NCBI GenBank assembly: GCA_964016885.1
Contig: OZ024741.1
Coordinates: forward strand, 326,430,001-326,494,000
Reading direction: 5' to 3'
Source of the DNA: Eledone cirrhosa
Taxonomy: Eukaryota
Length of the DNA stretch: 64,000 nucleotides
In this document: in pieces, positions 29,063 through 57,951 of the stretch
Position numbering within the stretch: position 1 is the stretch's first letter
Layout: every line of letters starts with the position of its first letter
Notes under the pieces: model-generated
Told to the model about the DNA's origin: nothing
Databases searched by the model: none
The model's input: the letters and a program-made list of their open reading frames with translations, nothing else
Translations under genes and position numbers: made by a program

Positions 29063-30845
29063 TATATATATACATACACATACATACACATACATTTTGG
29101 TATGTGAAGGGTAAGGCAAAAAGAATATATGGGGGGGGGGAGAAGACATAGGAATAGGTGAATTATAAGGGGAGATAAGGGAGAAAAAGAATACAAGAGT
29201 ACAGAACGTAGATTCAGCAAATAAAAAAAACCGCAGTAGAAGTAAAGAGCAGAGAAGGAGTTCAAGGCGGTTGATTTATCATAGGAGTGTCAATCCAGTT
29301 ACAGATCAGATGTGATTTCAGATGAGGACAACATCTGAAGATCTCGGTTTTTGAGTTTTGGCAAGAAGAAGTGGCTCTCAAGTTTAGCAAAATCCTATAT
29401 TTTTCTGTGGTACACAAAGAACAATTCTTCGTGCCCCTTTGGTACTCCCTCGAATGGTCTAAGATAGACCAATCGATAGAGTACGGGATGTTACTATCCT
29501 TGAATTCCCACACCTTACTTGCGAGGGCCGTCGATGTTCGTTTATCGGAGTGCTTAAAAGAAGCGACATGTGAGTAAAATCTGGTTTTACACCTGTCCTG
29601 GGTCATGCTAACATATCGCTAACTCCTGGCTGGTTGTTGATTAACGGTGTTATTTCAGCCTCATAAACAACAGATTTGGTGTTACATTTACCCTGCAATG
29701 GGCATTCATCCGGCTTCCTGCCACTGCATCCCGGATTTGTTCTCGTATGATTTGAACTAGTGATCGTGAACTTCATAGATGGGCAACACGAGTAACTGAT
29801 CTTAACTACGTTCCTATTAAATATCTTATAATATCTATGATTAGGAGGAAAATGTTTGTCTAAGAGTTCAAGGAATTTCATTCCTACATTAGTTTTGACA
29901 GTTAGAGAGAAGGGGGTGTGAACCAAATAATTTTCCTTTTCCTGTTATTGTGGTTAGTTTTAGGGGGGGGGGAGTAGGTAAATAAAAAATGTTTTCTGTA
30001 AAACTGCTGTTCTTAAGGGCTTTATTATAATAAGGCGCAGCTTTATTAAAAATGTCTATAGACGAAGATAAGGTAGAAATCCTACTCCTAATGTTAGGAA
30101 TAAGATTATTAAAAACTATAGGGGGATGGCAAGACTCTTTGTGTATATACCCAAGATTTTCATTAGGTTTATGGTAAGGTTTAAAAGAGGCGGTAAGTAG
30201 ATCAAGATTAATATCAAGAAAGTTAGCATTGGTAAGGTTCGTATCTATAGTGATTTTAAGGTTAAGATTAGCAAAAGTATTGATTAAATCTTTACGGAAT
30301 TTATCAAGGTTATGGCTGTTGGTGGTATGAGAAACTGCCAATCCGTCATCACGGTATAAACCGATATTATGGGAAGGAAATTTCTCTTTGAGGGTGTGGA
30401 GAAGGAATAATCCTACTAAGTCACACACATCCGCACTGTCATATGAACCCATTGCAACATCAAAAGAGTTTTCAGGGTTTGACTTTTTAACCCAAATATT
30501 TTCATTAGTAAAGAGTAAAGTTTTTCTAGCATGAAAGATAATGTCTTCTTCTAATTTAGCAATATTAATGAAGGGTCTTGCAAAATCTAAGGCATTAGTT
30601 AATAAGGAAACAGTATTAGAGGGTTAAAAATCAACAATATCAAATTGGGTAAATCTACACTTATTTTTACCTTGTATATTATTAAACCAAGAAATAACAG
30701 AGTAAGTATTTAGCCACTGTAATAGGTCAGTGTTAGTTCTAATTTAGAGAATTTTTTCATTCTGATGATTGAAAGAAACTTTTTTTGCTTTTAAGAAACC
30801 ACTGGTAAATGGAATAATTGCCTTATGTTGTTTATTACATAACTA
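28925..30845 (-). mobile_element. Penelope-like element 4, 5'-truncated, with 3' pseudo-LTR and inverted partial pseudo-LTR at the 5' break
   Basis: ORFs 29889-30452 (MGSYDSADVCDLVG, GLYRDDG), 29603-29926 (CPLQGKC, VVYEA) and 29262-29606 (RFYSH, CSLCTTEK). 28925-29015 recurs inverted at 30752-30845. Confidence 0.9.
30756..30813 (+). ncRNA. Type I hammerhead ribozyme in the inverted pseudo-LTR of PLE-4
   Basis: ttcatt-CTGATGA-ttgaaag..gcttttaa-GAAA-CCACTGG-TA-aatgga. The 28953-29012 (-) copy has a GUG triplet. Confidence 0.8.
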
Positions 30846-31657: not shown

Positions 31658-33457
<1,800 letters not shown>

Positions 33458-34131: not shown

Positions 34132-34948
34132 TACACGCTTATTTACACACGCATACACGCACACACATAAATATATATATAAATGTATATACATACATAC
34201 ATGTGTTTATAATTTATTAATGTTTAGAAGAGAGTAATATATTGATGATACCTGGACCATTATTTTGATGTCACCTTTCTCGAAGGAAGATTTTAATCCG
34301 AATAGTTGCTCCCAACTTAGACTAAAAAATTTGAAAATGAAAACCCAACTAGGTCCCATTGTCGGTAGTAGGATAAAAAGGCGGGTTCTGACGATTTGGG
34401 GGAAAATGCGCCAAAACATGCTCAAATTCGCTAAAAATGAAATTGACTTAAGGGGTATAAGTGTTGTATAAAAATGATAGAACCACGAGACAAAAAAGTG
34501 TTCGAGATGCAAGTGTTATCGATACCCAAGCGACTTCATGAAGGAAGGCCGTGAGTTGAACACCTGTATTTAATGTGGGGAAAAGAGTAGTAATCTGTTT
34601 ATATATTATGTACGTTAACGTAGAAATAAGCAATGTAAAGAATGTGGAAGTGGTGCGTCCTTCAGCGAACATTAAAACGGAAGTGCAAACCATGTGGTGG
34701 TAAAGCATACTGCGGCCATGGTAATATGAAGTGGAAGTGTCTCGAATTTAAAGAGGTTCAGTCAAGATATTAAACCATAAGTAAGGTTAAATATCAATAT
34801 CAAGGGAGGTGGGGTGGAACGAAGTGACTTTCTATCTTATCATAACACTATTACCATTGAGGTGAGGAGCCCGTCTCTGAGTCCAGTAGAGTCGTTTCAG
34901 ATTCTCGGTAGTCTTGTGTGCAGTAAGCTGCACCATTTCATATATCAA

Positions 34949-35835
34949 TCAACTCTTTATTACTAACCCATGAAACGTCCCAGGATACCCATTCCATTTC
35001 ACTAACGATTTTGTTTTCCCTTTCTTGATGATCTCCTCTATTCTGTAGACTTCCTGTTTTGTTTTCTGTAACTCTTGTTCATAGAGCGTACGTTGGATCT
35101 CTTCCCCATTGTAGTCAGTTATCTTGTAGGTAACCGGTGTGGTGTTTTGCACTGATGTAATGGTAAAAACCTCTTCTATCGATCTTGGGGTATATCTTTT
35201 CTCAAAGATTTTCTTTTTCTTAGTAACCCATACTTTGTCTCCCACAGAAAAAAGATCATCAATAATCGTTCTTTCATCATGTTCAGGGTAACGGTTTCTC
35301 CATACCCTATTTTCATTGTTCTTCTTACTCGCTTCAACAGGCCTCATTTTAGTTGAATCCTTAGTATTATAGTATTGTTTAACCAAATCATAGAGTACAT
35401 TGATATACACTCTTGTAGAATTTGCTGAAAAATATCTAAACATCTTTTCCTTCATCGTTCTGTTTCATCTCTCAACCGAACTTGAGTTTTCCTCATTCTC
35501 ATTCGAATACACCTCAATCAGATCATTCACATTCTTATTCCAAAACTCTTTTCCCTTGCCTAACCACATCTTGGTTGGTTTGCGTTCCTTGAATATCTTT
35601 TTTAGTGCTTAGCAACTGATTTTCCTGTCTTATCTTTCAAAGGCACAAGCCACCCATATTTTGAGAAGATATCTACTACAGCTAAGATGTACTTAACACC
35701 CTTATTAAACTTTGTGGATGCTTGCATGTCAACTAGATGAGCAGTCCATATCTCATCAACACCATTCATCCGAACTCTTCTCTTCTTGAATTTTCTACAT
35801 ATTGGTTTATGCAATTTTTCTGCTAATGCTTGCAA
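34949..35835 (-). pseudogene. Retroviral-like (rve) integrase with C-terminal chromodomain
   Basis: ELH/KLHKP..., IWTAHLVDM, YILAVVDIFSKYGWLVPLKDK, VGDKVWV..K..FEK and YRIEEIIK...SLVKWNGYP. Frameshifted at ~35460-35600. Confidence 0.9.
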
Positions 35836-35850
35836 TCTCAGATGATGAGG

Positions 35851-36352
35851 TTATTCAAATCTCATCTTAGTCCCAGTAATATTATCAACAATAGATCTAT
35901 CCAACCTCTCTCTGAGAGTGGGGTTAACAATACCACCCAGTTCATCTCTCATATTTTTATCACGTACTTTATTTCTCGTCTTTGCGTCCTTGTTTTTCGG
36001 GTAACATAGATCATGATGATATGCAGCATTATCAACTCTGTTTATAGGCGTACTCCAATCTTCTGGTGTTAGATTTGGGCTTAGTCTTTTATTGAGTTTA
36101 GTACCAGGTCCTGTAAAATTGTGGCCAGGAAGGTGCATTTCAAAAGAGAGTGAATTTATTGCTCTATTCAATATGGAACCACCCTTTACATCTCCCTTCA
36201 GTGGGCTCACCCCGCTCTTCCTCACAAACTGAGTCCTTGTTACCCCGCATACAAGACATTTCCCCTTTTCATATTTCTCCTATTTTTAGATACAGTCTTT
36301 TGTATGCCACTTGTATCAGTGACATGTTTACATTTATCACAATTAATTTTTA
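35851..36352 (-). pseudogene. Zn-ribbon + parvovirus-type phospholipase A2 (PLA2X-like) virion protein
   Basis: HLPGHNFTGPGT (Ca-binding loop) and DNAAYHHDLCY (HD catalytic motif). An upstream frameshifted segment reads CDKCKH...CLVCG. VKGG/S is a candidate adenain site. Confidence 0.85.
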
Positions 36353-36380
36353 TATTTAAAAAATAAATATTCATATTAAA

Positions 36381-37165
36381 ATGGAAGTGAAAGATCTCTC
36401 ATGGAATGAAGTAACAACGAAACGGTTTAATCACTTGCTATTACCAAAAAGCATTAGAGGAGTGATCATAGGCACATCTGGTTGTGGTAAAACCACTCTT
36501 CTACTAAATCTATTACTACGACTAGGCTGGTTAGACTATAATAAACTAACTGTGTTTGGTAAAAGTCTCTTTCAACCTGAATATCGGATCTTCAAGAAAG
36601 CTTTCGAAGAAAAGTTACCAAAGGAAGCTATAATGGATTGTTTGACCTGCGTGATGAGGTAATGAGATTAGATGTTTCACAATCAGCTCTTGTTGAAGAG
36701 TGGGCAAATGAGATTAGAGATAAATCAGATATAGAATGCAGTTTTTATGAATCTTCGGAAGATGTGCCTGATCCGCGAGACTTAAGTTCTGAAAACAAGA
36801 ACCTAATGATTTTTGATGATCTCCTCCTAGAGAATCAGAACAAATGTGAAAGTTATTACATTCGTGGGAGGCATAGCAATGTAGATTGTTTCTACCTTTC
36901 ACAAAACTACTGCAAGCTGCTCCGCCAGACGATAAGAGAAAATGCAAACTTTATCTGCCTCTTCCCACAAGATCTTAAAAATATTAATCACATTTACAAT
37001 GACCATGTAAGCCAAGACATGTTTAAGGATGAATTTAGAAAGTTGTGTAAAATAGCTTGGGAAAAACCACATGGCTTTGTAGTCATTGACGTAACAAATA
37101 AGAAGCCTAATGGCAAATACAGGAGTGGGTTTGATACATTCTACATACCCAATAAAAAAAATTAA
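36381..37165 (+). pseudogene. FtsK/A32-like DNA packaging ATPase
   Basis: Walker A GTSGCGKT, Walker B LMIFDD, RGRH and YLSQ motifs. One frameshift at ~36640. Confidence 0.92.
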
Positions 37166-37182
37166 AAAAACATTAATAAAAA

Positions 37183-37917
37183 ATGGAAGCGTTACTTGAT
37201 AAAATAGCTCAAAACACAGAGCCTAAAAACTCACTTCAAATTGTTTAATCCTCCTATTCAACTTGATAAAAGAAAAAGTATGAAATAGCACTCGTTAACC
37301 TTGATACTTACTACTCTTTTCCAAATATTTACTCAACCAACAATTATTTTAGATGTTCACCTGACGGTGGCTCTTCGTGGATTGAAATTTATATACCTGA
37401 AGGTAGCTACGATATCGCAGATATCAATGATACTATTCAGCAAAAGGTGAGGCAAAACGGGCATTATGACAGTGCTTATGAGGATTATTATATTACAATT
37501 CCTACCACCTCAAGCACACTAACGTCTGTTCTCATCTTGGAAAATAAGTACCAAGTAGATTATAGGCAAACCAAATCGATTTCTAGTGTTTTAGGGTTTA
37601 ATAATATCATCTACACTCTTGGTTTTCAAGAATCAGAAAATGTAGTTAGTATCCTAAGCGTCAACAGCTTACTTGTTAATATCGACATCATCTCTGTCAG
37701 TTATGTAAATGGTTCTTCACAGAACACCATCTATTCTTTCTTCCCAAATGTATCCCCTGGGTATAAAATCGTTGAGACACCTGTAAATTTGGTTTATCTT
37801 CCAGTGACATTAGATACAATACACAGTCTTGAGCCATCACTCACTGACCAGAATGGGACACAACTTAATTTGAGAGGAGAGAAACTAACGATGAGATTCC
37901 ATATAAGAGAAGTGTGA
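37183..37917 (+). pseudogene. Minor capsid protein (penton)
   Basis: YEIALVNL.TYYSFPNI...IPEGSYDI.DIN in the upstream part. C-terminus PVNLVYLPV...LTDQNG..LNLRGE..TMRFHIR is typical of Polinton pentons. Confidence 0.8.
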
Positions 37918-37943
37918 TATAAAAAAATACTATCTAATATAAA

Positions 37944-38531
37944 ATGAGTCGTTACACAAATGTCAAACTTAATATATTTCCGAAGGGCAGAAACAAAAGC
38001 TGCAAAATGCTCCCCAAACTGATGGCCCAGTGAGTATACGTCTAGGTTATGAAGATTTAAATGGTGAGGATATCTTGGCACTTACACACTCCCAAGTGAA
38101 TAAGATATTTAAAGCATATGAAAAGTGGGAAAGGATCAACTATAAAAATGAGTAAGTCACAGTTAGCATATAATATGAAAGTTGAAGGGGGGTTTATAGG
38201 TGCACTTGCTGGATTAGCTGCAAGATTTTTACCTGTAATTGCAAAACCAGTCCTTCCAGCTGTTGGTGTTGGTGCTTTTTCCGGTCTTGCAAGCTCTAGT
38301 ATGCAGAAAGTAATGGGTAATGGGTTATTCCTTAAAAAGGGTGGATGTGTTTGCCAGATAGAAACTGATGGGAATTGGTTATATCTCGGTCCTACATCCG
38401 GATCTGGGCTTGAGTCTGTTGGTGATGGATTATATATGAAGAAGCAGGGCGGACTCTATGATGATAGGGGTCTGCTTTTGGGGCCTAATAGTCCATTTCA
38501 ATATATTCCAACCCTTGGGATGATTTTGTAA
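37944..38531 (+). pseudogene. Putative virion core protein (pX-like) with adenain cleavage sites
   Basis: VEGG/FIGALAGLAARFLP hydrophobic segment resembles the adenoviral pX GG/ILPLL tail. Repeated G.GL(F/Y) motifs. Frameshift near 38115. Confidence 0.55.
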
Positions 38532-38599
38532 GGAGGATTGTAAAACCATCTAAAGGTGAATGTAATATAGAAAATATATATGTTGCATTAAAATAAAAG

Positions 38600-38972
38600 A
38601 TGCCAGTTCACAAATTGGAAGAAAACCAGAAAGGACACCATTACGACGCCAACCACTAACTAAAGATAGATGGATGCAAAATATCTTCCTCAGAAGAAAA
38701 CACCAGTAACTTGGGAGATATATACTCAAGAGCAGATTAACATCACAGCAAATGGGGCTAAAATAGTGTAGTTGGGGTTTGGTGTTATGATGTCCAGAGG
38801 TATGGTGTTAACATCTTTAAAATAAGAGTTGAAATATAAGCGATGTAGTTTGCAAAATGAGACTCTTCTTGAGAGTGTTGATGATATTATAATTACTATC
38901 CAAATTAACTCAGATACCCCTATTATAATTAATGAAAATATCCCCCTATGTTATATACATTACATACAATAG
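38600..38972 (+). pseudogene. dUTPase-fold protein lacking catalytic motifs
   Basis: Hand translation: AKYLPQKKTPVTWEIYTQEQINITANGAKIV*LGFGVMMSRGMVLTSLK*ELKYKRCSLQNETLLESVDDIIITIQINSDTPIIINENIPLCYIHYIQ. It follows the length and hydrophobic pattern of trimeric dUTPases. Not in the ORF track. Confidence 0.5.
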
Positions 38973-39014
38973 GAGTGCTATATGATATAAAAAAAATTCT
39001 CACATATATAAAAA

Positions 39015-39662
39015 ATGGAATACAAAAATAAAACTGAAGGGGATAAGCAGTTGGTGCAGAATGAGCACCTGTATCCAATAATACTCCCTGCTCCTCTAGA
39101 TGAAGGGCACACTTATCGATAACAGAAGATAAATGAAATCCAGAAAATCCTCAAAGAAGAGAAAGATAAGCGAGCAACTCTAAGTAAGAAATATCATCGT
39201 GCTGTAAAAGTAATTGATAACATTAATGTAGGGCTTGTAACTGTTACTACAGGCCTCGGTGTTGCTGGTGTAGGTATTTTATCAACAATTGTTGCTGCCC
39301 CAGCTGTTATTGCTATTGAGGGAGTTTTTCTCGCTACTGGCCTATTTAGTGTTATTGGAAAATATAGGAATAAAAAGCTTAATTCAAAAGCAGAAAAGCA
39401 CGAAAAGGTAAAAGTACTTGCTGATGCTAAACTAAACACAATTTCCTCATATATCTCAAAGGCTTTGATGGATAACAAGGTAAGTGATGAAGAATTTCAC
39501 CTAATCATCAGCGAATTAGAAAAATATTATGTAATGAGGGATGAACTTAAGAAAAAATCAAGGAAGTATATTAATTATGAAATGCAAAAGACATTGATTG
39601 AACAGGGGCGTAAAGATGCTCGTGAGTCCGTTCGTAAGATGTTTGAAAAAAAGAATGTCTAA
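39015..39662 (+). pseudogene. Membrane-active coiled-coil/hydrophobic-hairpin protein (adintovirus 'gasdermin-X'-like)
   Basis: One frame with a single premature stop: LYP...YR*QKINEIQ..L..E...R..L.KKY, hydrophobic hairpin GLGVAGVGILSTIVAAPAVIAIEGV, then KHEK...LA..KLNTI...ISKAL.D..VSDEEF. Confidence 0.7.
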
Positions 39663-39762
39663 GTTGAAATTCGAGATAAAAATCGAGATAAAAATTAAGA
39701 TGAAAAGTGGGATGAAAATCGTGTCTACTATGACATAAACAAATCTAATCTTTAGTAAAAAG

Positions 39763-40602
39763 ATGTAATTTCTAAAGATAACAGACCCTAAGAAGAGGGA
39801 TCTAATTGTTGAAGAGTTTCTCAAAACAAAGAGAAAAATCCAGAATCAACAGCTCACTGAACGTATTGGCGAACAAGTTGCCTTATCTGAACTAACTAAA
39901 CACTTTAAACCTGTTACAGAAAGATCTAACTCAGAGAACCATGAGTGAGATTAAACCCATTAGGGAGGGTATCCAAGATCTACCTAAAGCAATAGCTTTT
40001 CAACAGTTTCCTGCTATTGAAGGATCAGAAATGGATGAAGAAGATAAACCTGAAATGATTGGTAACATAGCTGCAAATTATTTGAGAAAGTTTGCTACCG
40101 AAGATGCTGATAACACCTACGGAATATATGACGAAAATGGTCAGTTTTACATAGGGGATACTAGAGTTGGTGTAATTGGTGATAATATTATTGTTGGTGA
40201 AAAATAATATCAAGGTAAACCTGGTCTTTGGGAGCTAATCACCATGAGAACCCCAAGTGAAAAGGTATACACTGCTGAAGACTATGAAAACTATGCAGAA
40301 ATCATGGTGAGAACAAATGCATTGAGACAAGGTAATATCAAAGATAGTAAGACACCAAAAGCTAGCAAAGAGTGGAAATGGAAGTACTTACTTAAAACAA
40401 TATGGGATGAGAGGAAACAGTTTGAAGGAGAGGGTATCTCTAAACAAACTGTCATACTCCCCAGCGATCCCAGTGCATTGCTTGACACGTTTGACTTATT
40501 AATGGCGAGTAAGGCATAAGCAACACAGGTGTGAGAAATGAGCTGAAGAGGCAAAACATATTAGACACAAATACATATAAAAAATTAATGACTTCATTAT
40601 AA
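39763..40602 (+). pseudogene. Conserved Polinton/adintovirus protein of unknown function
   Basis: FLKITDPKKRD...FKPVT, DNTYGI...FYIG, G.PGLWELI and GEG...ILPSDPSALL..FDLL.AS. Several stops. Confidence 0.6.
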
Positions 40603-40607
40603 AAAAG

Positions 40608-41130
40608 ATGTTAGTTCCGAAAAATCGTGGATTTAAAAGGTTGTATGTGTATGGTGGTGCCAGAATCTTTGACGGCATTGCAAGCTATTTTTCGAGGCTA
40701 TTTACTAGCAATGCTGCGAAACAACTAGCCTCTACTGCTCTCGATGTTGGAAAATCAGCTGTTAAGGAGGTTGGAAAGAAAGCGGTTGATGCTGGAAAGA
40801 ATGTTGCACTAGATGTTGGGAAGAAGCTTATTGAGAAGGGAGTCACTAAAGCGCTCACCCCAAAGTCTCAGTCAATACTTCAGAAATATGTTGGCCTACC
40901 CTTGCAACAGTCCTCGCCTGATGTAATTGCAAAGAAATGTCAGGTTATTTTACCTTGACACAGGAGCGCAAAATATTAATTCAATGATAGATGGTTCAGG
41001 GATGATGAGGTATAGGAGTGCTGCTGGCGGAACCCTTAACCCACCGCCATTCACTCAACCTGTTGCAAATGCTATCACTATTCAAGACCTTGTCAGAAAA
41101 TTAAACGGATCCGGCGTGAAAATGGTATGA
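40608..41130 (+). pseudogene. Putative core/membrane-lytic precursor protein (amphipathic helix after GG site)
   Basis: VYGG/ARIFDGIASYFSRLF amphipathic helix, basic Ala/Lys repeats, and IDGSG and LNGSG candidate protease sites. One frameshift. Confidence 0.45.
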
Positions 41131-41184
41131 AAAAATATATCTCATGAAAATGACTTTAAAAAATGTGATGCGATAGAAAAGACA

Positions 41185-41544
41185 ATGGAATTCAGTCGTG
41201 ACGATTATCCAAAATACAACACAGCTTCTATCATCATCAAGAATGCCGTATTCAGTCTGAAGGATTGTGAGATCCTTGAAATTGAAGACACAAAGTATGA
41301 ACAACAGAAAGTGGTTGTGAAACTACCTAAACAAAAAGTTGATAAGATGAAGGAAATTGAAGAAGAGGTTAATCGGTATCTTGATGACCAAGGTTTTTAC
41401 AAGATGAAGCTTGTATATGGAAACAAGATTTATGCAAAAAATAAAAGGACTTCAACACCCCCAAAACACCTAGAGTGTATTAAGCTGAGGAGTGTGCTTA
41501 TCAATAATGGAAGTAAAACCTTTTTACAGCTTTGGGTAATGTAA
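41185..41544 (+). CDS. Hypothetical viral protein (119 aa, intact)
   Basis: Open ORF in viral gene orientation, preceded by a motif shared with the polB upstream region. Confidence 0.55.
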   Translation: MEFSRDDYPKYNTASIIIKNAVFSLKDCEILEIEDTKYEQQKVVVKLPKQKVDKMKEIEEEVNRYLDDQGFYKMKLVYGNKIYAKNKRTSTPPKHLECIKLRSVLINNGSKTFLQLWVM

Positions 41545-41678
41545 GAGTATGAGGAGGAGGCATCTGAGCATTCACTAAATTTGGCGAGCGAAAAAGTCAC
41601 ACGTAATAGGTTCAGCAGGTGTAAAAGTGAAAACCCTTACATCTGAGTTAAAAAATATTTTCTCTACATTAAAAAAAA

Positions 41679-42963
41679 GTAATAGACATTCTAAGATTTA
41701 CCGAAGCTCCTATGAAAGATGGGAGTATTGAAGAGTATCAACATCATGAGTATGAACCAATCACAGGAACAAATCTCAACAACCCTGGTGATATCCGTAT
41801 CAATATTGAGACACAAGATTCCTTTACCCACCCGAGTGAGAGTTATTTGATCATCGAAGGTCGCCTGACAAAAGCTGATGGAACAGCTTATGCACACGGT
41901 GATAATGTTGCTCTGACAAATAATGCACTTATGCATCTTTTCAACAACATCAAGTATCAACTTTCAGGCCAGGAGATTGAATCCATCTACTACCCAGGGC
42001 AGGGAACAACAATGCCCGGCTTGTTGAAATACCCAGGTGATTTCTCCAAGTCACAGGGGCTGAATCATCTCTGGTATAAGGATACAGAAGCCACAGCAAG
42101 AACTGAAAACAATTCAGGATTTAGTGTTAGACAGTCATATCTAATCCAATCTCCCGACCCAAAAGGAACATTTAGCTTTAGAGTCCCACTCAAGCACATC
42201 TTTGGGTTCTGTGAAGACTATGACAAGAATGTTTATGGATTGAAGTAGACTGTTACCCTCGTGAGAAAGTCTGACAATGATGCAATATTTAGAGCTGCTA
42301 CTGCTGATGCTGGTAAAATTACACTAGATAAAGTGTCTTTGTGTATGCCGCACGTGTTACCTGCTGATGCTGAAAAGTTTCAGTTCTACAAGACAATCGA
42401 ATCAAAGACTTCATTGCCAGTCGCATACATAATGAAGCAGTGTGACTCTATCTCAGTCCCTCAGTCAACTAGCTTTACATGGTGTCTTTCTATGAAATCA
42501 TCTCCAGAAAAGCCACGTTATATCATTGTAGGTTTTCAAACTGATAAATATGGGTGTCAGGAACAGAATCCATCAATCTTTGATAATGTGGCTATGAAAA
42601 ATGTGTATGTAATGCTGAACTCCACTAGGTACCCAGCAGTCGATTACAACCTTTCATTCCCCAAACAGCTATTCAGTCGTGTGTATGGTGATGCTGCTAC
42701 ATCGAGATTCAAGCTTTATCATATGGATGAATTGGTGTTCAACCCCAACATCACTCCTGATGATTAAAAGACCCTCTTCCAACTCGTTGTGTTTGATGTA
42801 AGCAAGCAGAGTGAGCGACTAAAGACCTCTGTTACTGACATTCTGATCAAGACACAGTTCAATGCTAATGTCCCAGCAGGTACTGAAGCGTTTGCTGTTG
42901 TAATTAGTGACAAGATGACTAACTTCCAGTCTGACGGGCACAAGATGAGGTGTTGTCTATTAA
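41679..42963 (+). pseudogene. Major capsid protein (double jelly-roll hexon-like)
   Basis: D.SIEEYQ.HEY.P..GTNLN..GDIRI.I..QD....PSESYL.IEG, LFNNIKY.L.GQEIE, VPLKHIFGF.EDY.K, EKPRYIIVGFQT, LNS.RYP and FDVSKQ.E. Stops at 42248 and ~42767. Confidence 0.9.
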
Positions 42964-43038
42964 GACTTTCAGGCTGGTTTACCCACAAATTAAAAGTTCT
43001 TGAAATGATTTAAGAAAAATGATATAATATATGAAAAG

Positions 43039-43510
43039 ATGGCAAAACTTCCTGCGTTGAGAGAGATTCTTCGTGAAAATAAAATTAAAGGTTCCTCTCA
43101 CTACAACAAGAAACAGTTGATTGAGTTGTTGAGACAAAAAGGATTGCTACCAGATGAACCGCCGAAGCCTGATAAACCAAATAAGGAGATTGATCCAAGG
43201 TTTAATAGATTGAAGACAGTCAGAACAAACTCCAAACGAGTTGTGTTCAAAAGTGTGGAAATGAGTGATGAGATTAAATTTAATATTTAAATGGTTGATG
43301 AGATTACATCAATCTACAAGGCAGCACAGTTTATTAACTAACCTCCATCAATAGTAACATTTTGGAATGGCAGGGTGTGGAACAAAACGTATGGGATTAT
43401 AATAGGGGAGACGGAGGAGCGAGGAGATGCTGAGGTTCATGATATTGTAATGGAATCAATAAAGAACTTGGAGCATGAAATTGATAAGGGGTATGATGAA
43501 GAGGAATGAG
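43039..43510 (+). pseudogene. Small nucleic-acid-binding protein (Rho-N/HeH-like + NUMOD1-like)
   Basis: LPALREILRENKIKGSSHYNKKQLIELL matches the HeH pattern. Downstream F..SIYKAAQFI resembles a NUMOD1 helix-turn-helix. Confidence 0.5.
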
Positions 43511-43721
43511 GGGTAACTTCGTTTCAAATATGTTATATAAGGTTGGCAGAGCCTCATATAACACTCCCCAATTTCGGGGAACTGAGAGAGGTTTACTTTT
43601 GCCTCACGTGTTGATTTCTTTAAATTGATTTCTTTAAATTAGATACCATGTCATGGTTTAAAATGTAAGAAAAAATGAAATTCATGAAAATGACTTAAAG
43701 AAAATAAAACCCCTAATAAAA

Positions 43722-46700
43722 ATGAATGTGTTCAGACGAATCGGAACAGCCGCGTACAATGCGGTTTCAAATGTTGCATCATGGGTATCACAAACTGCGC
43801 AGCAAGCTACACAAGCTTCACAAAGAAGAGTAAACAGTTTCACTACCTGGTTAACTAGTTATGTGGACCCATCACAAGTTGGAACAGTCTTGGATGAGGT
43901 GACGGTACATGTGCGTAGAAATTACCCTCCTAGGCAGAGGACATTTGAGCTCCGTGAAAGTAGATCTGCTCTGGGGAGATTTACAACACAGCATGTTATT
44001 GAAGGGAGGGAGGTGTATGATCCTCAATCATTCCTGAGGGCTGTAAGAAAAACTGTAACCAATCTTCTTAGGGGTACCCGCAGAACATGGATAAAGCTAA
44101 TTCTTCGGTGTAATATGGAAACGGTTAGCATTGTAGCTGAAAGTGGAACAATGACTGAAGCAGCTGCCTTTCACTCCAATGTTGAGGTGAACTTAGAGGG
44201 TACTGATGTGGATGACTTGTATTACACCATGGTAGATAGGGTTTTGGAAGCAATGGCAAAATTTCAAATGCAGGGTAGTAACTGGACATTTAGGTCAATC
44301 ATTGCTCTTGAGATCCATACTGTTGCTTATGAGCCATTACGTAGAAGCTCTTACATTCCATTACCACGAAAGCTTGTATTGAAAAAGGCAATCATTAATA
44401 TGAAGAATGATGATGATAAGTGCTTTACCTGGTGTGTACTTCGAGCACTAAACCTAAAGAAAAAGGATAATGAAAGCATTGATAAAGTATTAAAGAGCAA
44501 GGAAGATCTCTTGAATATGAATGGTATTGAGTATCCAGCTATCCTGAAGGCAATAGATAGGGTAGAGAAACAAAACCCAAGGATTTCTATCAATGTCCTT
44601 GGGTATGAAAGTGCTATCTATCCCCTAAGGATAAGTAAATATACGGATTGAACGTCAGTAAACCTCTTAATGATCACAGATGATAAGACACACTACTGTC
44701 TAATTAATAACATGAGCCGACTTTTGTCTTCACAAACTTCAAAGAAAAAGGCCGAGCAACATTACTGCCTTAGATGCTTGAATTCTTTTCCTTCCCAAGA
44801 GTCCTTAGACAAACACTTAGAATATTGTAATACAGATGAGGCTGTCAAAATAGAAATGCCATAAGAGGGTTCAACCCTTTCATTTAACAACTTTAATAGG
44901 TCTATGAGAGTACCCATCATTGTGTATGCTGACTTTGAATCCTTCATAAACCATTAGATACCTGTGAGCCAAACCCAGAAAGGAGTTACACAAAACAATA
45001 TCAGAAACACACTCCATCAAGATTTTGCTACTACATCAAAAACTTTGATGATGCTTATTCTCAACAACCTGTAACATATACTGCAGAATCGGAGGATGCA
45101 GACCTTGCCCAGAAATTTGTAGACATGTTGGAAACAGATGTAAAATACCTCCACCTTAGGTTTGAAAAACCACAAAAGATGGTATTTGGAAAGAGGGAGA
45201 AGATTGAGTTTGAAGGAGCAACCAAGTGCTGTATATACCATGATGAGTTTGATCAAAATGAGAAAAAGGTTAGAGACCATTGTCATTTCACTGGAAAATA
45301 CAGAGGAGCTTCTCACAACAAGTGTAATCTAAAATACAAAAAACCAAAGTTTATACCTGTAGTATTTCACAATCTGAGTGGGTACGACTGTCATCTGTTT
45401 ATCAAGAATCTTGGGTTGAGTGAAGGTAACATTAACTGTATCCCAAACATTGAGGAAAAATACATTAGCTTTACCAAATAAGTTGTCGGTACGTACAAAG
45501 ATAAGAAGGGAGAGGAGAAACCTGTAAAACAACAACTTAGGTTTATTGACAGCTTCAAGTGTATGGCATCTAACTTGGATAAATTAGTAAGTAACCTAGA
45601 TAAAATTTGCTTCCTAAACACATCAAAATTCTATAAGGAAAAACAGCTTGACTTACTGTTGAGGAAGGGTGTATACCCCTATGACTACATGCATTCCCTC
45701 AAAAGACTAAGTGAAACCCAACTCCCTCCAAAGGAAGCATTCTACTCTAAACTTAGTGGTGATGGGATAAGTGATGTAGATTATCAATACGCACAAATGG
45801 TATGGAAAGAGTTTGGAATGAAGACCCCTAGAGACTACCATGACTCATACAACCAGTCTGATGTCTTGCTGTTGGCAGACCTCTTTGAAACCTTTAGAGA
45901 TGTTTGTAGTGAGAATTATGGATTAGATCCTCCGTGGTATTACACAGCTCCAGGTTTGGTATGGGATGCTGATTTGAAGATTACTGAAGTTAATCTCCAG
46001 TTGTTATCAGATCCAGACATGTTGCTTTTGATGAACAGGGTATTAGGGGAGGAATCTCGATGATAAGTAATAGATATGGGAGGGCAAATAACCCATACAT
46101 GGGCACCAAATACAACAAAAATGAAACAATAAAATATATCACTTACCTAGACGCAAACAATTTATATGCGTGGGGGATGGGTAAACCAATACCAACCCAT
46201 GGATTTGAATGGATGAGTGAAAGCGAAATGTCAAATTGGAAAGCCCATTCCTCCATTCTTGAGGTTGCTTTGGAATACCCTCAAAACCTTTATGATATGC
46301 ATAACGACTACCCACTTGCTCCAGAGAGCATTATAATCTCCAAAGTCGACAGGCTAATTCCTAAACTCAATAACAAAATAAAGCATGTGGTACACTATGA
46401 GAACCTCAAGCTGTATGTCAGTTTGGGGTTGAAGATTACAAAGATTCATAGAGGTATCAAGTTTGGGGAAAGTGCATGGTTAAAGCAGTGTATTGACTTA
46501 AACACAAATCTTAAGGCAAAGGCAAACAATGAGTTTGAAAAGGACTTCTCCAAGCTCATGAACAACTCTGTATTTGGAAAAACTATGGAAAACAGAAGCA
46601 GGGTAGACATCAGATTAGTCAACAACGAAGCAAAAGCAAAGAGGCTAGCTGCAAAACCAAACTACAAACACTGCAACATATTTGATGAGAATATATTAGC

Positions 46701-47312
46701 TATTCACATGAAAAGTTGGTATTCAACAAGCCTGTATATCTAGGAATGTGCATTCCTGATTTGAGTAAGACACTAATGTATGATTTCCACTACAGCTACA
46801 TTAAGACAAAGTACGGTTCCAAAGCAAAGCTACTGTTTACAGACACAGACTGTCTAGCCTATGAAATTGAAACAGAAGATTTCTACAAAGACATTTCCAT
46901 GGCTGTAGCGAGTAAATTCGATACAAGTAATTTCCAAAAAGATCACCGCTCAGACATAGAAACAGGACAAAACAAGAAAGTGGTAGGTATGTTCAAGGAT
47001 GAGGCTGGTGGTGAGATCATTGAATAGTTTGTAGGTCGCAGAGCCAAATTATATTCTTACAGGATGTTTGAAGGAAAAGAAGAAAAGAAATGTAAAGGTG
47101 TTAAGAAACCTGTTGTCAAGAAAAAGTATCAAGTTTGATGATTACAAGAGGAGCAGCTGAGAAGGATTAATGTCATTAGGAGTCATGGTCATGAGATGTA
47201 CACAGAAGAAATAAACAAGATAGCTCTGTCGGCAAATGACGACAAGAGAGTTATTTTGGAAGATGGAATGCATACATTAGCACATGGGCATTGCAAAATA
47301 AACAAAATGTAA
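43722..47312 (+). pseudogene. polB: Protein-primed family B DNA polymerase with Zn finger and endonuclease-VII-like insert
   Basis: Exonuclease motifs VYADFES, FHNLSGYD and YNQSDVLLL. Polymerase motifs YLDANNLY, KLMNNSVFGK, FTDTD and KCKGV. Also CLRC..H...C and RDHCHFTGKYRGASH..CN. Many frameshifts and stops. Confidence 0.95.
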
Positions 47313-47324
47313 TATATATATAAA

Positions 47325-47792
47325 ATGGAAAAAAACGAAGATTCATTCATTACTGTTGGAAACGTCATGTTACCAAACAAGCCGTTGAGCAAGATTGAAT
47401 TAATCAACTTAGCGCAAAAGTTGAAAATACCAAATTTTAGAGGCGTATTTCTACGTAATATTCTTCCTAAAAAATTTACAAAATAGGAGTGCGGAATATT
47501 GAACCTAGATGATACATCAGTAAGTGGGATACATTGGGTTGCTTGGTATAAGAATGGTAATGATAAGTATTACTTTGATAACTATGGAGTACAACCTCCG
47601 AGTGAGTTGATAATATATTTAGGACCATCAATCTTATATAACACAGAGCTAGTACAACAAGCGGATCAAGTGTTTTGTGGGCATTTATGCATGTATGTTT
47701 TAAAAGAAATGAGTTATGCGAAAGGACTTCAAGAAATAATAAATAATTTGTATCAAAGAAAATATTATTATAATAAAAAAAATGCCTATTGA
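47325..47792 (+). pseudogene. Adenain-like cysteine protease
   Basis: FRGVF, GILNLD...GIHWVA, YYFDNYG and Q....FCGHLC (H-D-Q-C catalytic set). Frameshift at ~47480. Confidence 0.9.
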
Positions 47793-47884
47793 TATTTTTG
47801 GAAGAAGCCAGAAGCAATATTATAGGAGCTGTTGTTTCTCTACTTCTAGAAATCGAGTTATAAAAAATAATTTTATAATAAAAA

Positions 47885-48100
47885 ATGCTTGTTGATAAAT
47901 TTAGTCGCATGCTAGAAACATGTATAACGAATGTTTCTAGTGTTTCATTAAGCCATATAAATAACAACTTTTTACGAAGAGATGGAACAAATACTGCAAC
48001 TGGGTCAATAAACATGACAGGAAACACGTTAAAAGACGTGTCAGACCCAGTAAATACACAGGACGCTGCAACTAAAAAATATGTGGATTCAAATGGAGAT
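47885..48100 (+). pseudogene. Truncated fibre-like protein
   Basis: FLRRDGTNTATGSINMTGNTLKDVSDPVNTQDAATKKYVD is a phage-tail-fibre-like repeat. The sequence then switches to unrelated AT-rich DNA. Confidence 0.6.
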
Positions 48101-48625
48101 GGATGTGGTATTGGTATTATCAACAAACGCATTTTGTACATATTATTTTTTTACTTATTTTTTACATCTGTACTACCTTCACTCTATCTTCTTTACCTCT
48201 TTATCATTATCTTTTATTATTTATGTTATTGATTTGATTCTCCGTTGTATCTCTATATATACACCAATGCCATATGTAAAAACTCTAGCATTCCGATGAT
48301 TTGATCAGAGGTAATAACTGTATTGAAGGTCGAGTGACGCAACTTCGAGTGATTAGCGGCCTTTAGCCTCACGTGATCAATGAAACAATTGTTAATACCT
48401 GAAATAAAACCCCTTTTGTACAGCCGACCATGTTATTCTTCAATCTATCACTATTATTACTCCAAGAATAACCTGCATAGGAATTCTCGCGAACTCGCAA
48501 CCTTACTATGGAAAACTCTTGTTGAGTCAAACAACGCCGTACGTTAAAACTATCCACAATACAGAGTACTCACAACATCTAAATGGACTACCTATAACGA
48601 TAACTTGTTATCCCCACGCGCATAA
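48100..48625 (+). mobile_element. PLE-type 3' end/pseudo-LTR with long-stem-II hammerhead (U4C variant)
   Basis: gcatt-CCGATGA-tttgatca...tgatcaat-GAAA-CAATTG-TT-aatac (48288-48398). The downstream part is homologous to 57720-57900. Confidence 0.65.
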
Positions 48626-49570
48626 AAAAAAAAAAATATATATATATATATTTATAGAGAGAGAGAGAGATAGAGAGAGAGTGTGAGAGAGAATGTATAT
48701 ATACATATATGTATTTATATTTATACACACACACACACATATATATACATATACTAGCATTAAAGCCCGGCGTTGCTCGGGGTCAGTAAGTTACCTAAGT
48801 TAGGTTGCACCACCCATTTTATGGTGGCACTTTTTTGTCTGCCAGGCACTGGTTGAATGAATTGCAGACCTGGACTGCCGAAGCAGGAGCTGCGCCAGCA
48901 GTGACAATTGTAGTTTCGCCTATTGATATTATCTCTGTGCAAAGAAGTGTTGAAATGTATTGTTTCACAGTACTTGCGCGTAGACGTTGCTAGCCGAACA
49001 ACAGAGCTGCAATGGAGTTGTTCTGCATGACATGTTTTAACGGGGGAGGGGGTGGAATGAGGGAACCGCAACCAGGGGTCTGAAAATATTGACGAATTAT
49101 GACAACCAAAAAAGAGGAAGAGGGGTCATTGTATGGTTGGTGCATCATGTACGTCGGACGTAGAAGATGATCCTGCTGCTGTGCCGACGGAGGGGGGGGG
49201 GGGGGAATAGAGCTGAGCGGAGGCCAGGTGTTGGTGAAGTGCGAAGTAATTGCAGGGAACCGCCTAAAAATGTAAATCCCGTCATTAAAGCATTGTTCAC
49301 CCTTTGAGAGTCGTACGGAGGTGAAATACTAACCTGTCAACGGTCCTCCGAGGAACACCAAACGGGTGTTGGTGAGGAGCAACAGCTGATATTTGAGTAG
49401 GGTCGGAGTTACAATGGAGCTTTGTAAAGCCGCAAGAATAAGCCTTTGTACGACCGATGGTTGGGAGTGTCCAGTGCAGTGCAGTGAAGGTTAACCTACT
49501 TAGAAAGTACTCACGAAGAGGCAACAAATAAAAAAATAAAAAAGTTATAAAATTAGGAATCGAGGTAATC

Positions 49571-52500
49571 CTATAAAACCTCCTTGTACACAATGTTTTT
49601 GTTTCTCCTTGCGGAACGAACGCGAAATCATCACTCTTGCTGCCGATACGCGAGCAGCCAACGTAAAGCTGACCATGAAAGAAACACGGCTCCCCCAAAT
49701 GTATTCCCGCGACAGACAGTGTTTGCCCCTACACTAGGTTAATTGACATGCGAAGCATGGCCAGACCGGGGACTGGAACCTCCGAAATGTGAAAGGCAGG
49801 TCTGCTTCTGATGGGAAAAGATGCATCCTCAGTATGAGCACAACCTTGCCCCGACCGCACCCTGTGATTATCGTGGCCTCAATCAGATTGGGAGCTAAGG
49901 ACTTAACGACCAAACGTGTGCCATTGCATTGTTTCGGCGGAACCAAATTTCGAATGAGCATTATAGGGGCACCAACTTTAAGTTTCAAAATGTGTGGGGG
50001 TAATCCGGGGGGCTCAAAGGAATTTAGTACTTCTATTGGATAGTTGATGACGTCCTCGGGGTCAGGAGTTCTATCGATAGACTTATATACGTAGCCATCC
50101 CCAGGAATGAGTTTTAGCATTTAATCATTAATATGGTTAACAGTATTATTCCTCGGGGCCAGAATAGCCCTTTGGGCAAGCCAATCTATATTCTGATAAT
50201 TTGCTTATAATTTGCTTATAATTTGCAAGGAGGGTGTGAGAAAATGCTGCTGATGCGATATCACCTCGCATATGAGTACGCATATTAGTGTGAAGTTTCA
50301 GAGTCTTCACCAAGGGCTGCATCAGCTCTAGTTCCCTTGGGAATAACGGGAAGCGTTTGCCTGAAGTCCCCTGAAAGGAGAAGTGTTATGCCTCCCTTGG
50401 GAGCCGTAGAGTCTTTGATGTCTCTCAGAGTTCTATCTAGCGCCTCAAGAGCACCTCTGTGGGCCATCGTGCATTCGTCCCAAACGATAAGCTTGCATCG
50501 TCTGAACACTTCTGCCTGATCGGAGCTCTTACTGATGTTGCAAGTGGGTGTCTCAGTCTTCGCTAAGTCAAGCGGGAGCTTGAAATAGGAGTGAGCTGTC
50601 CTGCCGCCCGGTAACACAGTAACCGCAATTCCAGATGATGTCACAGCTAAGGCAATGCCTTCTGTTCGCCTAATCTCAGCTAATATTAATTTGGTGACAA
50701 AAGTTCCCCCTTCCCAGGAGCGTCGAGGAAAGAAATCCCCCCCAGCTTTGCCCCGGACAGAATTAAAAACGGCGTTGTAAGCGAATTTCTGTTCTGGAAG
50801 GAGCTTTGGCTCATTCTACGCTATGTACTGGGCAAGCTCGTCTACAGTATAAGATGTCTCACGCAGCAAATCCGAAGACAGAGAGTTTGCGCCTTCCCGG
50901 TTTGTTGTAGGTAGGCCATACACCACCAACGCACTACCGCCCACATCGAGAACAGCATCTTCGATTTCAAGCAGCGCCCTCGGGTAAATGAGGTCACTGT
51001 ACCCGACCTCCATCGATGGGTTTAGCAATTGAGCGTGACCCAGGAAATCTTCAGATATGTAATCTTTGTAGCTAAGCCATAAAGAGGCCGGAACACCCAA
51101 GTCGCATCATAGGAGTAGAATAGCGAAAAGCGATCTTAGTCTTTTAGGAGATTTCAACAAAACGCCCTCTGCCATAGTGGCGCCCCATTGTGAATCATCC
51201 TCCAAAAGGCCACGCCTAAAGCAGGCTTCCCGGAAAGTATCACATAATTCACCGTCAACAGTTCTTATGTCTCGAAAGCTTTGTGGGCCAAAAACCTCAT
51301 GTAGGAGAAGGCGCAGGTGAAAACACTCATGCTGGTTGGGATGTACAGTGTACACTCTTCCTAGACAACTGTCAAACTTGACACCAGGATGTCCTTCAAC
51401 ATCCTGACCTGACTTCCTACGCACCCAAGTGTTGTTTGACCATACGTAGTAGAACTGGACCTGAGGATATGAAAGTGTTTTTGCAAATTGGTCAAGTTAG
51501 CAAAGCGTAAAAAAAAAAACAGTCAAAGTTGTTTCTTTGGATTGGCCGCCAAATGAGCAGCAGTCTGTTCAGTGAAGTAAGCCTGCTGGCCGTTTTCCAA
51601 ATGAACCACTACTTGTATGATGGCGGGGTGCCTTTGGTGAAATGGAAACCCGAATATCCGCCAAAAAGCTTCACCACTGCTGATATATCGACCTGCCAAG
51701 TACTCTGAGACCTCGTCCCTGCTATTCTCGCTTTGAAGGCCGAACATGGCAGCGTCGGAACCCTTGTTAACATATTTACATATGTACTTTATCGACTTCA
51801 CTGAATGACAGAACTCCACATTTATATGAGCGTTGAAAGTTTTCATCAGAAATGGACAGTACGGGACCACCCACCTATTATCAACTTGATGACCCCGAAA
51901 CCCCATAGTGAATCCACCGTTCTCAGGCCGCCTTCGTCTGTACAGTGGGTATCCGTCGCCGCCGGTCTGGGTCTCCTCAACAAACCTCTTTGGGTATCGT
52001 TTAGTGCACACATGGTCCTTGTGGTATGAGGGGAACTCTTGAAAACCGAGACAATGTCGTACAGTTGCCGGTCAACAACGGGGTCCGGTATTTCCGCTGC
52101 GATTACGTCATCTAGAACTGTAGGGTCTATTTTGGTGACCAACCAAACCAAATTGTGCGCGTTTGGAAACCATCTCTTCTGCCACTCAACAGTATACATG
52201 TGGCACCTAACAGGCCCGAAAACCTTCCCTTTTGTATTAGATCAATTAGCTTAGCGAGCTTCTGCGTGAAAACTCTGGCAATAATATCATGCCGTTGGCA
52301 GTACTGCTGCCCTGGGACAAGTTCCCACGTAACCTCAACCCACTTGGGGTTACACGTAAACGTGATGAATAAGTCGGGGCGCCCATAATGCTGCTTCTGA
52401 TTCAATTTTATGAAGCACAGTCTCTCCGACTCAATCTTTGCAGCCATGTCAACTGCAAATTGGTGAAACAGTTCCCGTTATCTGTGCAGAGTGCTGAAAT

Positions 52501-56697: not shown

Positions 56698-56747
56698 GTA
56701 TTATATATATGTATATATATGTACATACACACACACACATATATATA

Positions 56748-56832: not shown

Positions 56833-56905
<73 letters not shown>

Positions 56906-57920: not shown

Positions 57921-57951
<31 letters not shown>

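What the first reader, a model, noticed from the sequence alone, without database searches (positions are those of the whole stretch)
34586..48100. Near-complete endogenous adintovirus/Polinton with full virion module
Seen: integrase, PLA2, ATPase, penton, core-like genes, major capsid, pPolB, adenain and a fibre stub in a compact layout. Most genes are disrupted but remain readable. Known: this gene set defines virus-like Polintons (adintoviruses). No OTU domain is recognisable in the PolB N-terminus. Inference: a fossil of a probably uncharacterised mollusc/cephalopod-infecting lineage whose genome could be reconstructed.
Basis: partly seen in the sequence, partly recalled or inferred. Interest (0 to 1): 0.72.

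Follow-up and report, generated by a model that had tools for sequence, protein, structure and literature searches.

The report
Decayed Polinton virus fossil, single copy
This 14-kb stretch is a broken, apparently single-copy remnant of a Polinton (adintovirus-type) DNA virus integrated in an animal genome; it has the usual capsid, integrase and polymerase genes of a family common in marine invertebrates, so it is an ordinary new member, of note mainly because the host is likely an octopus.

Summary
The gene set is confirmed: integrase, PLA2, packaging ATPase, penton (folds like virophage, adenovirus and giant-virus capsid entries), core-like genes, double-jelly-roll capsid, pPolB, adenain and a fibre stub. 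The order is the same as in an IMG/VR contig. About 19 frameshifts and 13 stops in 3,695 codons give 2-4% decay; one run holds the stretch as one identical 14-kb contig, so the breaks are real and no close second copy showed. The OTU domain is present: residues 215-332 fold onto OTU proteases, with Cys and His invariant in 73 of 73 rows, behind a terminal-protein domain. And the AGTAGT at 34586 probably lies inside a decayed Cys-rich gene, so it is likely not the left end. The right end (most of the fibre, the TIR) is missing. Relatives are abundant (55-86% identical) and named ones come from an annelid, bivalves, a coral and a sea spider, so the lineage is not mollusc-specific. Small extras: an unannotated intact 119-aa gene and a shared upstream motif before three non-structural genes. 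The scan noted Polintons in other genomes before, not this sequence. New member of a known kind; interest 0.27.

The parts
34439..34452 (+). Upstream motif (GAAAWTGACTTWAA type), 35 bases before the ATG at 34474; putative promoter element
   Evidence: 3 matches in 64 kb, 0.30 expected; pattern chosen after seeing the sites; one search shows the spacing
34474..34770 (+). Decayed Cys-rich gene (CxxC pairs, two CxxCG(G/S)...H units) in pieces over more than one frame; probably an accessory gene of the element
   Evidence: the unit occurs twice in the six frames of the window, both here; 0 of 84 related loci; no family hit above E 0.01
34586..34591 (+). AGTAGT, a known Maverick end motif, but probably a chance hexamer inside the Cys-rich gene
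   Evidence: 7 AGTAGT/ACTACT in 23 kb, no inverted partner; motif described in PMC8097293
34941..35850 (-). Retrovirus-like integrase with chromodomain, broken (2 frameshifts, 1 stop)
   Evidence: 63% identical to the intact L081 protein, which hits rve and Chromo
35851..36396 (-). Parvovirus-type phospholipase A2 gene, broken near its start
   Evidence: PF08398 39.9 bits; GPG and YHHD motifs; relative has an N-terminal DUF5679
36381..37165 (+). A32/FtsK-type packaging ATPase, 1 frameshift
   Evidence: Walker A and B; 75% to L081 protein with Pox_A32 above cut-off
37183..37917 (+). Penton (minor capsid protein), broken near its start
   Evidence: (mavirus penton Z 7.3, rmsd 8.3, 187 aligned; EhV-201 and PBCV-1 capsid chains Z 10.1 and 9.9); 2,039 relatives
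37944..38531 (+). Core-like gene with weak adenovirus protein X similarity, 2 frameshifts
   Evidence: 77% to L001 protein; L081 relative hits Adeno_PX at E 0.007, below cut-off
38600..38966 (+). Small conserved gene of unknown function, broken
   Evidence: 60% to a 126-aa L001 ORF
39036..39662 (+). Conserved helical gene with a hydrophobic stretch, 1 stop
   Evidence: 52% to L001 ORF; in 45 of 83 loci
39765..40599 (+). Conserved gene of about 293 codons, unknown function, broken
   Evidence: 64% to L001 ORF
40608..41130 (+). Conserved gene with an amphipathic N-terminus (possibly the 'Cupiennin' class), 1 frameshift
   Evidence: 67% to L001 ORF, which has a weak antimicrobial-peptide hit, E 0.02
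41146..41159 (+). Upstream motif, 39 bases before the ATG at 41185
41185..41544 (+). Intact 119-aa accessory gene of an unannotated family
   Evidence: 54 relatives among 1.84 billion representatives; no family or solved-structure match; 0 of 83 loci
41682..43013 (+). [quoted passage not shown]
   Evidence: PF21738 in 3 of 3 pieces; 83% to an intact 426-aa relative that scores 192 bits
43039..43290 (+). HeH/Rho_N-like small DNA-binding gene
   Evidence: weak Pfam hits; same place in L081, L002, L031
43686..43699 (+). Upstream motif, 36 bases before the pPolB ATG
43722..47288 (+). Protein-primed DNA polymerase B (TP - vOTU - exonuclease with endonuclease-VII-like insert - palm), 5 frameshifts and 4 stops
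   Evidence: 71% to the intact 1,200-aa P0124
43974..44336 (+). Terminal-protein domain of pPolB (residues 85-205)
   Evidence: 10 of 50 rows are Y-family polymerase entries on this range, best Z 7.6, rmsd 3.2, 108 aligned, the match expected for TP (PMC11071308)
44364..44717 (+). vOTU protease domain of pPolB (residues 215-332), catalytic Cys234 and His324 still present, one stop inside
   Evidence: 23 of 23 rows on this range are OTU-type deubiquitinases, Z 5.0-7.6; Cys and His in 73 of 73 rows
47349..47792 (+). Adenain-type maturation protease, 1 stop
   Evidence: 61% to L081 protein; His and Cys motifs; weak Peptidase_C5
47885..48094 (+). First 70 codons of the fibre gene; the rest and the right end are missing
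   Evidence: matches residues 1-67 of a 319-aa L081 protein; tail-fibre PHROGs

Best explanation
This is a broken, integrated Polinton (polintovirus, adintovirus type) with a full set of capsid, packaging, integrase and polymerase genes, which likely entered the germ line once, lost its right end, and has since decayed without selection. Shown: gene content and order, the breaks, the cut fibre gene, and one unbranched copy in the run examined. Inferred from what is known of the family: the live ancestor would have integrated through its rve integrase, copied its linear DNA with a protein-primed polymerase whose vOTU domain is thought to cut off the terminal protein, packaged it with the A32-type ATPase into a shell of double-jelly-roll capsid protein with penton and fibre at the vertices, matured it with adenain, and used the PLA2 to cross membranes on entry. 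Inferred here: a shared box 35-39 bases before the polymerase, the 119-aa gene and the Cys-rich gene would be an early promoter signal. The copy cannot work today: integrase, ATPase, both capsid genes, polymerase and protease are all broken.
For: Family hits and folds for the hallmark genes. Full colinearity with IMG/VR locus L081, which has open frames and a 47-bp inverted repeat pair; L031 and L001 share the order over their length. 19 frameshifts and 13 stops in 3,695 aligned codons, spread over 12 of 14 genes. Decay 0.024 changes per site from stops (95% range 0.013-0.040) and 0.018-0.041 from conserved columns: two estimates that agree. A 13,997-base contig in run X1 matches 34211-47150 with no difference, so the breaks are not errors peculiar to the assembly. 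Flanks are microsatellites, Penelope-like and Helitron sequence typical of an animal chromosome.
Against: No TIR pair or target-site duplication, so integrase-mediated insertion is not shown for this copy. The whole genome was not available; copy number rests on one sample, and the tool listed only the longest 16 pieces, 47 not shown. The major capsid protein was not folded here; it rests on Pfam and on identity to relatives. The OTU and TP fold scores are below Z 8, and Foldseek gave no PDB match at E <= 0.001. The upstream motif was defined after the fact and was found before only 1 of 8 HeH-like and 0 of 28 polymerase-matching ORFs of relatives, many of which are internal fragments.
Confidence: 0.9

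Rival explanations
1. The copy is one decayed member of a Polinton family that is, or recently was, active in this host, with other copies elsewhere in the genome.
For: One other 4.2-kb contig in runs X1 and X3 matches two short patches at about 78-79% identity (14 of 63 and 21 of 102 letters differ). Relatives form clusters of up to 1,916 members, so the family does expand in some hosts.
Against: The 14-kb contig is unbranched and identical to the window; no long piece from a second close copy was listed.
Confidence: 0.15
2. One gene, the intact 119-aa ORF at 41185-41544, has been kept by the host while the rest decays.
For: It is open from ATG to stop with its upstream motif in place, among broken neighbours.
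Against: At 32 breaks per 3,695 codons, a 119-codon gene stays open by chance about one time in three. Nothing here tests expression or selection.
Confidence: 0.03
3. AGTAGT at 34586 is the true left end, and what lies to its left is host DNA.
For: (AGT)2 is a described Maverick end motif (PMC8097293) and sits 360 bases beyond the integrase stop.
Against: A Cys-rich frame runs through it, starting to its left behind the same upstream motif as two element genes; such hexamers occur 7 times in 23 kb; the single-copy contig of run X1 extends left to at least 34211.
Confidence: 0.15
4. The element comes from another organism or is an assembly artefact.
For: PMC8502044 describes adintoviruses that entered datasets from environmental sources. 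Only one study holds the stretch.
Against: It sits inside a long chromosome piece between repeats that recur in the window, and 3 runs of one sample hold 95-100% of its words.
Confidence: 0.02

Closest known systems
Adintoviruses, now family Eupolintoviridae, order Amphintovirales, class Polintoviricetes (PMC8502044; renaming in PMC12451622)
   Same: OTU-bearing pPolB, rve integrase with chromodomain, FtsK/A32 ATPase, hexon, penton, adenain, fibre, PLA2 and pX-like genes; about 14 kb; endogenous decayed copies are described as common. The polymerase N-terminal model's best viral match is Drosophila-associated adintovirus 2 (E 7.7e-22, 18% identity).
   Different: Genus not settled. The polymerase fits PF03175 poorly (5 of 5 intact relatives have no hit), which points to the Beta class, while PLA2 is called an Alpha hallmark; here the PLA2 relative has an N-terminal DUF5679 and the pX-like signal lies in a separate gene. 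No TIR pair left.
Unnamed Polintons of marine invertebrates and metagenomes, e.g. IMG/VR locus L081 and elements in Capitella teleta, Ylistrum balloti, Porites evermanni, Mya arenaria, Nymphon striatum
   Same: Same gene order in L081; proteins about 55-86% identical; DNA 63-71% identical over 1.7-3.7 kb.
   Different: The 119-aa gene, the Cys-rich gene and the upstream motif were not seen in the fetched loci. No near-identical element found.
Vertebrate Mavericks (PMC8097293)
   Same: Same core gene classes; 96% of the 3,511 loci in that study are decayed like this one, and most lack recognisable TIRs.
   Different: Those have a two-module layout of eight genes; this element has a different order and extra PLA2, fibre and HeH genes (from the passages read; not compared sequence by sequence).

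Membership tests
Polinton/Maverick (class Polintoviricetes) | Protein-primed family B DNA polymerase | tested here: met
   PF03175 52.8 bits in one piece; motifs A-C; 71% to an intact 1,200-aa relative; adintovirus and MELD polymerases top the viral fold search
Polinton/Maverick (class Polintoviricetes) | Retrovirus-like (rve) integrase | tested here: met
   63% identical over 270 aa to L081 protein with rve (E 1.5e-7, 32.0 bits, just under the cut-off of 32.6) and Chromo; window pieces alone gave no hit
Polinton/Maverick (class Polintoviricetes) | [quoted passage not shown] | tested here: met
   PF21738 above cut-off in 3 of 3 pieces; not folded here; no PDB sequence match
Polinton/Maverick (class Polintoviricetes) | Single-jelly-roll penton | tested here: met
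   Model pLDDT 68.9; top 5 of 50 rows are virus capsid or penton entries; 32 BFVD matches at E <= 0.001, named ones minor capsid, penton or LO5. The jelly-roll part is poorly modelled because the piece lacks its N-terminus.
Polinton/Maverick (class Polintoviricetes) | A32/FtsK packaging ATPase and adenain-type protease | tested here: met
   Motifs; 75% and 61% to intact relatives; Pox_A32 above cut-off in the relative, Peptidase_C5 only weak
Polinton/Maverick (class Polintoviricetes) | Terminal inverted repeats, end motif and 6-bp target-site duplication | tested here: inconclusive
   No inverted partner for 34191-35000 in the window; the right end is lost, so the feature cannot be scored
Eupolintoviridae (adintoviruses) | OTU domain at the pPolB N-terminus | tested here: met
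Eupolintoviridae (adintoviruses) | Animal host | tested here: inconclusive
   Flanks look like an animal chromosome and named relatives are from animals; no host gene in the window; 'octopus' only from earlier notes
Eupolintoviridae (adintoviruses) | PolB, hexon and penton cluster with the Mayetiola or Terrapene reference proteins | not testable with these tools
   The reference sequence files of PMC8502044 lie beyond the part of the supplement that is held
Alpha class of PMC8502044 | pfam03175-type PolB with a PLA2X gene | tested here: inconclusive
   PLA2 present but no pX domain seen on it; 0 of 5 intact relatives hit PF03175
Beta class of PMC8502044 | Divergent PolB with GasderminX and Cupiennin genes | tested here: inconclusive
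   Poor PF03175 fit and a weak antimicrobial-peptide hit (E 0.02) are in favour; no phage polymerase match by tblastn; GasderminX not tested

The most novel reading that the evidence does not exclude
A first described cephalopod polintovirus fossil, from a marine lineage that moves between annelids, bivalves, corals and cephalopods and that does not fit the Alpha/Beta split (divergent polymerase together with PLA2 and a cupiennin-like gene), with a readable early-gene promoter box shared by its polymerase and two accessory genes, one of them the intact member of an unannotated 120-aa protein family.
Probability: 0.3. Interest if true: 0.45.

Novelty: new member of a known kind. Interest (0 to 1): 0.27.

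Why it matters
Modest. Decayed Polintons are among the commonest large viral fossils in animal genomes, and this one has the standard parts, including the OTU domain whose supposed absence was the one unusual claim. What it adds: a datable record that this lineage reached a (probably cephalopod) germ line fairly recently, 2-4% decay ago; a data point for host switching among marine invertebrates; a candidate transcription signal in an animal Polinton; and an unannotated small protein family. A lone, selection-free copy could also serve to measure the host's neutral substitution and indel rates once an orthologous copy is found.

Tried and rejected
No whole genome held. TIR search by blastn of both ends against the window: nothing. 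Sequencing runs: no RNA holder listed. RAD-seq runs X4 and X5 of other individuals gave only short partial matches and say nothing about presence or absence. Viral-contig scan with the capsid piece: no relative; with the penton alignment: 3 loci. Idea that the 119-aa protein is a T7-type single-strand binding protein like the DUF2738 gene of L082 (recalled resemblance): hhalign probability 1.2%, no Pfam or PDB support, Atlas hits at most 0.90 and unnamed; not supported, fold untested. Cys-rich gene: the one viral-contig hit, L084, is a 24-residue match to an unrelated phage gene; rejected. CpG observed/expected is 0.42 against 0.15-1.41 in 10 related loci and 0.8 in the flanks: uninformative. 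Foldseek against PDB for the polymerase N-terminus gave no match at E <= 0.001, weak rows being Y-family polymerases. PDB sequence searches for capsid and PLA2: none. Polymerase relative against phage genomes: none. The careful tree did not finish; a quick tree of 46 rows was used, after thinning 120 homologues to 45. Literature searches for a cephalopod Polinton (33: no 'Octopus', 'Sepia', 'Euprymna' or 'squid' in the held part of the adintovirus supplement) found no dedicated description; the library lacks most subscription journals and RepBase, so this does not show absence.
Full report
Observation. Stop-to-stop ORFs between about 34900 and 48100 form a dense array in an otherwise microsatellite- and transposon-filled window. 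Pfam finds PLA2 (PF08398, 39.9 bits, cut-off 23.9), a double-jelly-roll domain in three consecutive pieces (PF21738; 31.6, 85.3, 29.4 bits, cut-off 27) and an organellar/viral PolB piece (PF03175, 52.8 bits) above cut-off, and Pox_A32, HeH and endonuclease VII below it (31 pieces scanned, 19 without any hit). The integrase, ATPase and protease pieces are 63%, 75% and 61% identical to intact proteins of IMG/VR locus L081, which hit rve plus chromodomain, Pox_A32 and, weakly, Peptidase_C5. Walker A/B, the PLA2 motifs, polymerase motifs A-C and the protease His and Cys are readable.

Penton and capsid. The 215-aa piece at 37270-37917 has 2,039 relatives of similar length, the best 85% identical. 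Folded with 63 of them (pLDDT 68.9), its five best structural matches among 48,161 chains are EhV-201 and PBCV-1 capsid chains (Z 10.1 and 9.9), mavirus penton (Z 7.3, rmsd 8.3, 187 aligned), an adenovirus-derived binder and a fowl adenovirus chain; Sputnik is seventh. Only the mavirus entry is titled penton; that the other chains are pentons is recalled. In BFVD, 32 matches reach E <= 0.001 and the named ones are minor capsid, penton or adomavirus LO5 proteins. The major capsid was not folded; it rests on Pfam and on 83% identity to an intact 426-aa relative that scores 192 bits.

The OTU claim. The polymerase N-terminus (43722-44861, one stop read as X) has 907 long relatives, many of 1,200-1,300 aa. 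In an alignment with 72 of the 120 listed, Cys234 and His324 are present in 73 of 73 rows and Asp231 in 72. The model (pLDDT 82.6) splits into two domains: residues 85-205 match Y-family polymerase entries (10 of 50 rows, best Z 7.6) and residues 215-332 match OTU-type deubiquitinases (23 of 50 rows, every row on that range; Z 5.0-7.6, rmsd 3.2-4.4, 89-113 aligned). Each Z is under 8, which the tool calls middling, and Foldseek found nothing at E <= 0.001 in PDB, but the class agreement, the invariant dyad and the published TP-vOTU-EXO-PALM layout, in which TP resembles the Y-family little-finger domain (PMC11071308, passages read), make the reading firm.

Relatives and gene order. Scans with the penton alignment gave 80 metagenome loci (the best of 458 confirmed) and 3 viral contigs. 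L081 has the same order and orientation throughout: integrase and PLA2 on one strand, then ATPase, penton, core-like genes, capsid, HeH, polymerase, protease, fibre. Others shuffle blocks. DNA identity to these loci is 63-71%. A quick tree of the TP-vOTU region (46 rows; 120 homologues thinned to 45; SH-aLRT only) puts the window next to a clade with Capitella and Ylistrum elements (support 89, not starred); the neighbouring group holds P0192, whose cluster includes a Porites protein; Mya and Nymphon lie further away. Most rows are unnamed, so host range is under-sampled, but the lineage is plainly not confined to molluscs.

State and age. Against natural relatives the element shows about 19 frameshifts and 13 internal stops in 3,695 aligned codons, in 12 of 14 genes (a few of these near alignment ends may be artefacts). 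Stops imply 0.024 changes per site (95% 0.013-0.040); excess change at conserved columns implies 0.018-0.041. No host rate was available to turn this into years. Three runs of one sample hold 95-100% of the words of 34586-44500. In X1 a 13,997-base contig covers 34211-47150 with no difference; the only other notable record is a 4.2-kb contig matching two short patches at about 78-79% (16 pieces listed, 47 shorter ones not shown; X3's long record was not listed). X1 may be the sample the window was built from, so it checks the assembly, not the species.

Ends. On the right, similarity to the 319-aa fibre of L081 stops after 67 residues at 48094; a dispersed repeat and a Helitron follow. On the left, AGTAGT at 34586 is a described Maverick end motif (PMC8097293, passages read), but it has no inverted partner, such hexamers occur 7 times in 23 kb, and a Cys-rich frame runs across it from about 34474 to 34770; its repeat unit occurs twice in the six frames of the window, both here (pattern chosen after the fact; no family or relative found). 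A 14-base motif with up to one mismatch occurs 3 times in 64 kb against 0.30 expected (1 of 100 shuffles reached 3), at 35, 39 and 36 bases before the ATGs of this gene, the 119-aa gene and the polymerase. The motif was derived from these sites, so the count is inflated; the constant spacing is the better evidence. It was rare before genes of the relatives. I read it as a likely early promoter box and as a sign that the element reaches at least to 34440; both are inference.

The 119-aa gene. 41185-41544 is open, absent from 83 of 83 loci, but has 54 relatives among 1.84 billion representatives, 19 at E <= 1e-10, one in a cluster of 1,282 members. No family, structure or function could be assigned. 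Staying open is expected by chance about a third of the time at the measured break rate.

Comparison with what is known. PMC8502044 (parts 1-4 of 6 of the text read, and part 1 of the supplement with the labels of Fig. S2; sequence files not readable) defines adintoviruses by this gene set with an OTU-bearing PolB, lists Mytilus and Pinctada members, and already describes Alpha/Beta mosaics. The family is now Eupolintoviridae (PMC12451622, passages). PMC8097293 (passages) found 96% of vertebrate Maverick loci decayed. PMC10294476 (passages) reports Mavericks in all genomes analysed, two cephalopods among them. Passages of 10.1101/2023.08.22.554363, 10.1101/2023.10.06.561300 and PMC11131425 show mollusc and coral Polintons and cross-phylum transfers are known; PMC8363768 (passages) did not give the class of Drosophila adintovirus 2. 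Alpha or Beta could not be settled: 0 of 5 intact relatives hit PF03175, which leans Beta, but a PLA2 gene is present and no phage polymerase matched. Searches for a described cephalopod element found none in this library. Earlier scan notes call this genome an octopus (unchecked), show no look-alike of this capsid sequence and list Polinton-type findings in at least 12 other genomes.

Verdict. A real, dead, right-truncated Polinton of a common marine-invertebrate lineage, with the canonical polymerase layout. New member of a known kind. Interest 0.27; the bolder reading (unclassified mosaic lineage with a readable promoter box, first in a cephalopod) has a probability of about 0.3 and would deserve about 0.45.

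Noticed in passing
window 48753-54200, minus strand: Decayed Helitron next to the right end: Pif1 helicase pieces (PF05970 157 bits, PF21530), Rep-like ORFs, a 69-bp tandem array at 53601-53833 and a hairpin plus CTAG at about 48753-48780 that fits a Helitron 3' end (end pattern recalled).
   Followed up: partly
window 48319-48680, 56747-57007, 57663-57960: A dispersed repeat with 66-87% identical copies lies between the cut fibre gene and the Helitron; it may mark the event that removed the right end.
   Followed up: partly
window 31714-33343: Nested long inverted and direct repeats (391-bp arms at 97%, 254-bp arms at 96%, a 300-bp direct repeat at 96%), just downstream of a Penelope-like RT piece at 29889-30623; not examined for editing marks.
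   Followed up: no
window 13445-15905 (-), 18968-19564 (-), 8522-9261 (-), 29889-30623 (-), 4199-5862 (-): Several decayed retroelement ORFs that look like Penelope RT/GIY-YIG and a non-LTR RT (labels by eye, not scanned except 29889, which had no Pfam hit).
   Followed up: no
window 9407-11902: Tandem array of a 452-bp unit, 5.7 copies, 90% matches.
   Followed up: no
window 25636-26087: 128-bp inverted repeat at 98% with a 196-bp spacer, possibly a MITE.
   Followed up: no
L082:988-1755: A related Polinton carries a DUF2738 gene (77 bits) where this element has none.
   Followed up: partly
L013, L019, L020, L036, L053, L058, L076: Relatives keep the integrase-PLA2-ATPase-penton block fixed but shuffle the capsid, polymerase, protease and fibre blocks around it.
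   Followed up: partly
P0467, P0124, P0363: A relative of the 119-aa gene, the closest full polymerase and a penton all come from contigs of 1,513,583 bases, which suggests one element carrying all three; inferred from equal contig length only.
   Followed up: partly
window 43004-43017 and 43611-43640: A looser version of the upstream motif lies about 35 bases before the HeH gene, and a 14-bp unit is doubled in the spacer before the polymerase.
   Followed up: partly
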